DNA from: Escherichia coli
GTDB lineage: Bacteria; Pseudomonadota; Gammaproteobacteria; Enterobacterales; Enterobacteriaceae
Length of the DNA stretch: 64,000 bases
Direction: 5' to 3' (one strand)
Assembly (NCBI RefSeq): GCF_009931435.1
Contig: NZ_CP043414.1
In this document: positions 7,367 through 7,486 of the stretch, one piece after another
Numbering within the stretch: the first letter of the stretch is position 1
How the letters are laid out: each line of letters begins with the position of its first letter
Notes under the pieces: generated by a model
Database searches by the model: none
The model's input: only the letters and a program-made list of their open reading frames with translations
Told to the model about the DNA's origin: nothing
Program-made: the position numbers and the translations under genes

Positions 7367-7486
7367 GTACAAAAAGTGTACTTCTGATGATCTTTCCCTG
7401 CCTATCAGCCCCCCTGCTGAACCCTGCACAATATCCAGTCCCTTGCGGGTCATGTCACCCTGCCGCGCCGCCGGTTTTCCGCTCAT
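7367..7486 (-). pseudogene. Duplicated Rhs 5' start remnant ([13 protein letters not shown]...QGSAG, about 25 codons), then divergent sequence
   Basis: The reverse complement of 7412-7486 encodes [26 protein letters not shown], nearly identical to the start of the full Rhs gene at 12277; homology ends abruptly and a stop follows. Confidence 0.7.

What the first reader, a model, noticed from the sequence alone, without database searches (positions are those of the whole stretch)
7367..7486. Second copy of the Rhs start codon region downstream of the immunity gene
About 75 nt encoding [13 protein letters not shown]...QGSAG recur 4.8 kb downstream of the true Rhs start, followed immediately by unrelated sequence and the H-repeat transposase remnant. 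A displaced Rhs 5' end fits homologous recombination between Rhs starts or decay of a second Rhs copy, and marks a recombination scar in the island.
Basis: seen in the sequence. Interest (0 to 1): 0.45.

Follow-up and report, generated by a model that had tools for sequence, protein, structure and literature searches.

The report
Stump of a deleted second Rhs gene
The short "second Rhs start" is the 86-base leftover of a second, tandem Rhs toxin gene whose remainder was deleted right up to the end of an insertion sequence; it is ordinary gene decay, not a new element.

Summary
On the minus strand, an ATG at 7486 opens 28 codons (7401-7486) that match positions 1-30 of the RHS core protein profile.

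It is not a copy of the window's own Rhs start, with which it shares only 60 of 86 bases. It is identical (86/86, plus 34/34 upstream bases) to the start of a full-length second rhs gene, here called rhs2. In 91 complete E. coli genomes rhs2 sits directly after the same immunity gene.

In the window, homology to rhs2 stops at base 86. That is exactly where the terminal inverted repeat of a 1,290-bp H-repeat / ISEc1 element (6111-7400) begins. So the "unrelated sequence" after the stump is the end of the insertion sequence.

Other strains carry the same IS end joined to rhs2 at +41, at +1153, or 20 bases upstream of the ATG. This pattern points to IS-bounded deletions eating into a tandem Rhs array.

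"Recombination between Rhs starts" is not supported. The identical junction recurs in at least 24 contigs of one lineage. K-12's ylbI pseudogene is an analogous stump. No function is indicated, and interest is low.

The parts
7401..7486 (-). 5' stump of a deleted tandem rhs gene (rhs2, RhsG/H-type N-terminus): codons 1-28 plus 2 nt, containing the literal P-A-A-R motif. It is a GC-rich island (63% GC).
   Evidence: 86/86 identical to the starts of full-length rhs2 in L006 and L019-L028, but 60/86 to the window's main Rhs. Matches RHS_core profile positions 1-30. GC content.
7364..7486 (-). Chimeric 40-codon ORF plus stop: 28 rhs2 codons read on into the H-rpt inverted repeat (…GRERSSEVHFLY*).
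   Evidence: Translation. This exact 40-aa product is called as a gene in at least 24 contigs, 39 index blocks. No Pfam hit.
7487..7562 (-). Native spacer between the immunity gene and rhs2, with an AAGGAA Shine-Dalgarno-like motif before the ATG.
   Evidence: The 34 nt upstream of the ATG are 34/34 identical to tandem loci. The 75 nt of spacer printed after the immunity gene are identical in L019-L028 except L024. No terminator-like site.
7563..8012 (-). Immunity-type gene (149 aa). PGAP names its 92%-identical allele 'RHS element protein dsORF-h1'.
   Evidence: Annotations. The exact protein occurs in 1,108 index blocks. The gene plus spacer occurs in 1,083 of 5,426 complete E. coli genomes.
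6111..7400 (-). H-repeat (H-rpt) / ISEc1, an ISAs1-family insertion sequence of 1,290 bp. Imperfect terminal inverted repeats are CAGGGCAAGAT… (6111 onward) and CAGGGAAAGAT… (reverse complement of 7400 downward). The transposase ORF (about 6121-7256) is dead.
   Evidence: 96% identical over its full length to K-12 H-rptE (ydcC), with the match ending at 7400. The transposase has stops at codons 44 and 60 and a 1-nt deletion near codon 351. No flanking direct repeat.
8025..12277 (-). Resident full-length Rhs (RhsD/E-type N-terminus, CT-h1-type tip). In this window it is split by a 1-nt deletion at about 9326/9327.
   Evidence: ORFs 9209-12277 and 8025-9320. Alignment to L003 and L006 shows CAGCA-CGCC against CAGCACCGCC. 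The gene is intact (1,417 aa) in the 99.9%-identical locus L021.
12344..14488 (-). VgrG gene that heads the vgrG-rhs-immunity operon.
   Evidence: ORF list. Annotated VgrG in the syntenic loci.

Best explanation
The fragment is a non-functional 5' stump of a second, tandem rhs gene (rhs2, RhsG/H-type N-terminus). That gene once followed the resident rhs-immunity pair at this locus, the RhsE locus between yddH and ansP.

In the ancestral arrangement the order was vgrG, rhs1, immunity, rhs2, immunity2, H-rpt. A deletion removed everything from rhs2 nucleotide 87 to the outer end of the H-rpt/ISEc1 element. This fused the IS inverted repeat directly to rhs2 codon 29.

Shown here:
- the stump is identical to intact rhs2 starts;
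- the break lies at the last base of the IS;
- undeleted tandem arrangements exist with an H-rpt in the same orientation;
- other strains carry the same IS end at other rhs2 coordinates.

Inferred: the deletion was made by the IS end itself, as a one-ended 'adjacent deletion' by intramolecular transposition. I put this sub-step at about 0.5. The alternative, at about 0.35, is an H-rpt insertion at nt 86 followed by recombination with the downstream H-rpt.

The stump has since been inherited passively. It outlived the inactivation of the transposase and of the resident Rhs in the window's strain.
For: - Identity of the stump: 86/86 coding nt and 34/34 upstream nt are identical to the start of rhs2 in L006; 82/86 to rhs2 of L008; only 60/86 to the window's main Rhs. 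Eight of ten sampled contexts of the exact immunity protein continue into rhs2 after the same 86 nt.
- Intact ancestor: a chimeric query spanning the break is covered in one piece in 91 complete genomes. The tandem arrangement exists at the min-5 T6SS locus (L006) and at the RhsE locus itself (L008).
- Position of the break: homology to K-12 H-rptE ends at 7400 and homology to rhs2 starts at 7401.
- Other junctions at the same IS terminus: +41 (about 982 genomes), -20 (2 genomes), and +1153 followed by an internal deletion (1 genome). Elsewhere the same end abuts an orphan core-3' stub, a mid-core stub and an IS1 remnant.
- No target-site duplication flanks the H-rpt, and no other rhs2 piece or H-rpt copy occurs in the 64 kb.
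- The identical junction occurs in at least 24 contigs. Some of these have an intact transposase and an intact Rhs, so the junction predates their decay.
Against: - No experiment or sequence feature separates a one-ended IS deletion from insertion plus H-rpt x H-rpt recombination. An open-access paper repeats that H-rpt transposition has never been observed (PMC3032704).
- The +86 junction is absent from all 5,426 complete E. coli genomes. No close undeleted relative of this exact lineage was found.
- The +41 junction could derive from the +86 junction by a 45-bp microhomology deletion, so the number of independent IS-end events may be 3 rather than 4.
- The stump keeps an SD-like motif, an ATG and an open 40-codon frame, so translation cannot be excluded.
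Confidence: 0.88

Rival explanations
1. The H-rpt first inserted into rhs2 at nt 86. Homologous recombination with a second, directly oriented H-rpt downstream of rhs2 then deleted the interval. The outcome is the same as in the best explanation but the route differs.
For: Tandem loci carry several H-rpt copies in direct orientation (L008 has three). H-rpt copies are mosaics of one another, which implies recombination between copies. The final sequence would be indistinguishable from an adjacent deletion.
Against: It needs independent H-rpt insertions at -20, +41, +86 and +1153 of the same gene. No un-recombined insertion intermediate (H-rpt flanked on both sides by rhs2) was seen in any locus read.
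Confidence: 0.35
2. The stump was not created at this locus. It arrived already truncated as part of a cassette (core 3' end, CT-h1, immunity, stump, H-rpt). The cassette was exchanged between Rhs loci by recombination in the conserved core on one side and in the H-rpt on the other.
For: The same immunity gene with a stump next to an H-rpt is found at two loci: min 5 next to yafV (L001, L002) and RhsE next to yddH (window, L007). The central part of the window's H-rpt is most like the H-rpt of the min-5 locus L002, while its right end is of the K-12 RhsE type. In strain ST70 the cores at the two loci give identical identity profiles against the window, which suggests conversion between loci.
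Against: The +86 junction was seen only at the RhsE locus, in at least 24 contigs. An RhsE-locus tandem array with an E-type H-rpt end exists (L008), so formation in place needs no extra step.
Confidence: 0.25
3. The fragment is a duplicate of the resident Rhs start, made by homologous recombination or slippage between Rhs 5' ends.
For: Both starts share [13 protein letters not shown] and IVQGSAG, and they lie in direct orientation 4.8 kb apart.
Against: Identity to the resident start is only 60/86 nt, with at most about 15 nt of uninterrupted identity, against 86/86 to rhs2. The upstream flank is the immunity-rhs2 spacer found in 91 tandem genomes, not the vgrG-rhs spacer, which matches at only 13/34.
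Confidence: 0.02
4. The 40-codon ORF, or the RNA across it, is functional. Examples would be a small PAAR-motif peptide, or a leader that couples operon read-through to the IS transposase.
For: An SD-like motif, an ATG and an open frame are retained. No terminator separates it from the immunity gene. The junction is conserved unchanged across loci that differ by 1-3% elsewhere.
Against: - 28 residues are far too few for a PAAR fold, and there is no Pfam hit.
- The C-terminal 12 residues are read from an IS inverted repeat.
- Other lineages carry 41-nt, composite or zero-length versions, so there is no conservation of length or sequence.
- The transposase downstream is dead in the window.
Confidence: 0.03

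Closest known systems
ylbI (b4632) pseudogene of E. coli K-12, downstream of the RhsD element
   Same: It is a 32-codon Rhs 5' stump ([32 protein letters not shown]) lying after the last orphan module of an Rhs element. A similar …GGAAATAAACC spacer precedes it, and it is annotated as a pseudogene.
   Different: It sits at a different locus. Its start codon is mutated to ATT and its sequence is mosaic. It is not fused to an H-rpt inverted repeat; the adjacent gene is ylbG on the opposite strand.
Tandem full-length rhs genes in E. coli. From memory, Wang, Zhao & Hill 1998, J Bacteriol 180:4102, reported RhsH in tandem with RhsE at min 32.8; that paper could not be read here.
   Same: The same immunity gene, spacer and first 86 nt are present. 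The intact rhs2 is an NF041261 RHS_core equivalog with an Ntox16 tip in L008.
   Different: In the window everything after nt 86 of rhs2, its immunity gene and any further relics are missing.
Orphan / dissociated Rhs C-terminal tips (C-terminal displacement model; Jackson et al. 2009, PMC2935791)
   Same: Both are relics that accumulate downstream of an intact rhs gene and record past rearrangements.
   Different: Tips are 3' pieces: a core-end homology, an AT-rich toxin tip and an immunity gene. This is a 5' piece with none of those. The text search of that paper found only C-terminal fragments and no 5' stumps.
H-repeat (H-rpt) / ISEc1, ISAs1 family
   Same: The element at 6111-7400 is a typical copy: 1,290 bp, imperfect inverted repeats, and a 378-codon DDE transposase frame.
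   Different: This copy is dead (two stops and one frameshift) and lacks a target duplication. It matters here only as the boundary of the deletion.
IS-mediated adjacent (one-ended) deletions. This is established knowledge for IS1, IS10 and IS903, cited from memory.
   Same: The IS is retained with an intact end. The junction lies exactly at the terminal base. There is no target duplication. Different lineages carry nested endpoints.
   Different: This has never been demonstrated for H-rpt or ISAs1-family elements. It is inferred here from comparative sequence only.

Membership tests
RHS element core protein (NCBIfam NF041261) | N-terminus matches the start of the profile | tested here: met
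   The 40-aa ORF matches profile positions 1-30 of 1261 at E=1.1e-10.
RHS element core protein (NCBIfam NF041261) | Full-length core reaching the curated cut-off (2000 bits), with YD repeats and the Rhs-associated core domain | tested here: not met
   The score is 40 bits for 28 homologous residues. No further rhs2 sequence occurs in the window. It is therefore a fragment, not a member gene.
RhsG/H-type versus RhsD/E-type N-terminus | Residues 14-19 read RKGLDI (G/H-like) rather than QYGGPI (D/E) or QYGGSI (A) | tested here: met
   The stump reads TRKGLDIVQGSAG. It is 82/86 nt identical to the main Rhs of the min-5 locus and 86/86 to rhs2, against 61/86 to K-12 rhsD and 65/86 to rhsA. The subfamily names come from memory of Wang et al. 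1998.
Orphan / dissociated Rhs C-terminal tip | Begins with a 3' core fragment (hyperconserved end), followed by a variable toxin tip and a cognate immunity gene | tested here: not met
   The only homology is to rhs nt 1-86. No core-end, tip or downstream immunity gene is present, and the next base belongs to the IS.
ISAs1-family insertion sequence (H-rpt / ISEc1), for the flanking element | About 1.3 kb with terminal inverted repeats and a single DDE_Tnp_1 transposase ORF | tested here: met
   The element is 1,290 bp and 96% identical to K-12 ydcC/H-rptE. Inverted repeats are CAGGGCAAGAT / CAGGGAAAGAT. The transposase frame aligns over residues 1-377 but carries 2 stops and 1 frameshift.
ISAs1-family insertion sequence (H-rpt / ISEc1), for the flanking element | Flanking target-site duplication, as expected for a simple insertion | tested here: not met
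   The left flank ends …ATAAACACC and the right flank begins CCTATCAGC…, with no repeat. This fits a rearranged copy rather than a simply inserted one.
IS-bounded adjacent deletion | Breakpoint at the terminal base of a retained IS, and an undeleted relative with the IS distal and in the same orientation | tested here: met
   The break lies at 7400|7401. L006 and L008 keep rhs2 and an H-rpt with its transposase on the same strand.
IS-bounded adjacent deletion | Deletion catalysed by the transposase | not testable with these tools
   Only comparative sequence is available. PMC3032704 states that no H-rpt transposition has been observed.

The most novel reading that the evidence does not exclude
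H-rpt/ISEc1 may not be a passive passenger of Rhs elements. Its ends may repeatedly generate one-ended deletions that prune tandem and orphan Rhs modules back towards the last gene under selection, the immunity gene.

This would explain two observations. In every locus read, the IS end abuts a different truncated Rhs relic. In addition, the rhs2 stumps end up at most about 110 nt long, close to the immunity gene.
Probability: 0.3. Interest if true: 0.35.

Novelty: new member of a known kind. Interest (0 to 1): 0.15.

Why it matters
It matters mainly for annotation. The 40-codon ORF at 7364-7486 is called as a gene in many assemblies but is a pseudogene stump fused to an IS end.

It also dates the locus. 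The strain's ancestor carried two full-length Rhs toxins in tandem and lost the second one with its immunity gene.

The one wider point is the set of distinct junctions at the same H-rpt terminus (-20, +41, +86, +1153, plus other Rhs relics). This is sequence evidence that the 'never seen to transpose' H-repeat has repeatedly remodelled Rhs arrays. Such remodelling would affect which toxin and immunity sets a lineage keeps.

Tried and rejected
- Duplicate of the resident Rhs start: rejected, 60/86 against 86/86 identity.
- Rest of rhs2 on the far side of the H-rpt, or elsewhere in the window: none found.
- Exact-match scan of the species-representative genomes for the +86 junction (GATCTTTCCCTGCCTATCAGC): 0 hits. 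The junction was later found through the exact 40-aa ORF instead.
- The Hill-lab papers on RhsH and H-rpt (PMC107405, PMC204594) are not held. What I say about them is from memory and flagged as such.
- A literature search for 'RhsH/dsORF' returned only sonic-hedgehog papers.
- The 'ISEc1' hit PMC10711316 concerns ISEc12 and non-IS deletions, so it is not relevant.
- The mobilome preprint gave no data on ISAs1 activity.
- Pfam and NCBIfam give nothing for the immunity protein or for the 240-aa ORF at 5271-5993.
- The promoter and terminator scan of 7100-8100 shows nothing above shuffles, and no terminator between the immunity gene and the stump.
- An apparent hot spot or 'selective wall' for junctions in the first 100 nt of rhs2: weakened. 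The L002 stump turned out to be an IS junction at rhs2 nt ~1153 plus a later internal deletion.

Full report
**What is at the coordinates.** All the genes concerned lie on the minus strand. From the ATG at 7486 the sequence reads [29 protein letters not shown] and then RERSSEVHFLY-stop. The resident Rhs gene starts at 12277 with [29 protein letters not shown], 4,791 nt away.

The resemblance is real:
- The 23-nt start pattern occurs only at these two places in 64 kb, with none expected in shuffles.
- blastn within the window gives E=1e-10.
- The NCBIfam RHS_core model aligns its positions 1-30 to residues 1-30 of the little ORF at E=1.1e-10.

**Locus context.** The window is the RhsE locus of an Escherichia chromosome. 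The gene order is narH-narW-narI-yddE-nhoA-yddH, then H-rpt, stump, immunity gene, Rhs and VgrG, and finally ansP-yncE-pqqU.
- PGAP names the 92%-identical allele of the 149-aa immunity protein 'RHS element protein dsORF-h1'.
- Flanking core genes are only 93-97% identical to E. coli ST70.
- The window is 99.9% identical over 14.4 kb to CP057959.1 (L021).

**It is not a copy of the resident start.** Over the first 86 nt the stump shares 60/86 bases with the window's own Rhs. It shares 61/86 with K-12 rhsD and 65/86 with K-12 rhsA. In contrast it shares 82/86 with the main Rhs of the min-5 T6SS locus, and 86/86 (plus 34/34 upstream bases) with a second rhs gene, here called rhs2, in locus L006.

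I joined window 7401-7700 to the next 300 nt of such a gene and searched the complete E. coli genomes. In 91 genomes the chimera is covered end to end in one piece at 97.5-97.7% identity.
- In L006 the order is vgrG, rhs1, the same immunity gene, rhs2, two small ORFs, H-rpt and yafV.
- L008 carries the tandem arrangement at the RhsE locus itself. Its rhs2 is an intact 1,397-aa RHS_core equivalog with an Ntox16 tip.
- Of ten sampled genomic contexts of the exact immunity protein, eight continue from the same 86 nt into rhs2.

The stump is therefore the beginning of a second, tandem rhs gene. From memory, Wang, Zhao and Hill (1998) reported RhsH in tandem with RhsE at this map position. I could not read that paper here.

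**Where and how it is cut.** Window 6111-7400 is a 1,290-bp H-repeat / ISEc1 (ISAs1 family).
- It is 96% identical over its whole length to K-12 H-rptE (ydcC), and the match ends at 7400.
- In the spread sample of complete genomes, most records match window 7300-7400 and stop there.
- Its ends are imperfect inverted repeats, CAGGGCAAGAT… and CAGGGAAAGAT….

Homology to rhs2 begins at 7401. The 'unrelated sequence' after the stump is thus the 143-nt non-coding end of the IS, and the stump is fused to the very last base of the inverted repeat.

No target duplication flanks the IS. No other rhs2 piece or H-rpt copy occurs in the 64 kb. This is therefore a deletion junction, not a simple insertion. 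Relative to L006 the missing interval is about 4.7 kb: rhs2 from nt 87, its downstream small ORFs and a further relic.

**A family of junctions.** The same IS terminus is joined to the rhs2 region at other points in other strains.

| rhs2 coordinate of the junction | Example locus | Occurrence |
|---|---|---|
| +41 | L001, min-5 locus | about 982 of 5,426 complete genomes |
| -20, in the spacer, with a 25-bp tandem duplication of the IS tip | L007, RhsE locus | 2 complete genomes |
| about +1153, followed by an internal rhs2 deletion (a 110-nt composite stump) | L002 | 1 complete genome |
| +86 | window | 0 complete E. coli genomes; at least 24 contigs elsewhere |

- Together with the 91 tandem genomes, these classes account for about 1,076 of the 1,083 genomes that carry this immunity gene.
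- All contigs with the +86 junction place it at the RhsE locus with an identical junction. Some have an intact transposase and an intact Rhs, so the junction predates the decay seen in the window.
- Elsewhere the same IS end abuts an orphan core-3' stub (L006), a mid-core stub and an IS1 remnant (L008). The opposite IS end abuts orphan tips cut at different core positions.

**Mechanism.**
- Shown: the stump derives from rhs2, and one deletion endpoint is the IS terminus.
- Inferred: the IS end made the deletion, as a one-ended adjacent deletion of the kind known for other IS families. The main alternative is insertion at nt 86 followed by recombination with a downstream, directly oriented H-rpt. 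That route is plausible because H-rpt copies are mosaic and occur in multiple direct copies. However, it needs several independent insertions into one short region, and no intermediate was seen.
- A third, non-exclusive possibility is that the truncated cassette moved between the min-5 and RhsE loci by recombination in the core and in the H-rpt.

Sequence alone cannot decide among these.

**Function.** None is indicated.
- 28 residues cannot form the N-terminal domain, and Pfam finds nothing.
- The ORF tail is read from an IS repeat.
- Stump length varies between lineages.
- There is no terminator or notable promoter.

**Comparison with known things.** The stump is not an orphan C-terminal tip in the sense of Jackson et al. 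2009. In the text search of that paper only 3' fragments came up. The closest annotated analogue is K-12 ylbI, a 32-codon Rhs-start pseudogene downstream of the RhsD orphans with a similar upstream spacer. H-rpt is a long-known Rhs companion for which transposition has reportedly never been observed (PMC3032704). The junction series here is indirect evidence of past activity at its ends.

**Verdict.** This is a real but ordinary feature: an IS-bounded pseudogene stump of a deleted tandem Rhs gene. Interest is low. The only mildly new angle is H-rpt as a recurrent pruner of Rhs arrays.

Noticed in passing
window 9326-9327 (within Rhs 8025-12277, minus strand): The resident Rhs carries a 1-nt deletion (CAGCA-CGCC against CAGCACCGCC in relatives) that splits it into ORFs of 1,022 and 431 aa. 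The 99.9%-identical locus L021 has an intact 1,417-aa gene, so this is a private frameshift or a sequencing error.
   Followed up: partly
window 6121-7256 (minus strand): The H-rpt transposase is a pseudogene here, with stops at codons 44 and 60 and a 1-nt deletion near codon 351. Loci L009 and L010, which have the identical stump junction, keep an intact 378-aa transposase.
   Followed up: yes
window 4880-6110, including ORF 5271-5993 (minus strand): This is an AT-rich variable segment between yddH and the left end of the H-rpt. It holds a 240-aa ORF with no Pfam or NCBIfam hit. Other strains have pptA, a GNAT gene, part of this segment, or an IS3-like orfA remnant at this spot. The left IS end is therefore also a variable junction.
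   Followed up: partly
L007 7906-7955: The terminal 25 nt of the H-rpt (AGCAGCGTTACGTGATCTTTCCCTG) are duplicated in tandem at the junction that lies 20 nt upstream of where the rhs2 ATG would be.
   Followed up: no
L002 6102-6205: The stump that PGAP annotates as 'hypothetical protein, incomplete' is composite. It consists of rhs2 nt 1 to about 75, fused to rhs2 nt about 1120-1153, then the H-rpt inverted repeat. Decay was therefore multi-step.
   Followed up: yes
L017 9498-9593 (E. coli K-12 ylbI, b4632): K-12 has an analogous 32-codon Rhs-start stump downstream of the RhsD orphan modules. Its start codon is ATT and its upstream spacer is similar.
   Followed up: partly
L008 3167, 4456-4600, 10627: In an RhsE-locus tandem array, the H-rpt left ends cut orphan tips at two different positions of the core 3' end. 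One H-rpt right end abuts a mid-core Rhs stub (…WHYDEADRLTHRTV…).
   Followed up: partly
L001 6681-7871: The main Rhs at the min-5 locus of strain 504239 is an in-frame internal-deletion product. About 205 N-terminal residues are joined directly to the DPIGL…toxin tip, giving a 396-aa protein annotated only as DUF6531.
   Followed up: no
L003 and L006 (same strain, ST70), aligned to window 8900-11300: The Rhs cores at the RhsE locus and at the min-5 locus of one strain give identical identity profiles against the window. This suggests gene conversion between the two loci.
   Followed up: no
window 1-25000: Flanking housekeeping genes (nar operon, ansP-pqqU side) are only 93-97% identical to E. 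coli ST70, and the best overall match among 5,426 complete E. coli genomes listed is 96.7%. The source may be a divergent Escherichia lineage.
   Followed up: partly
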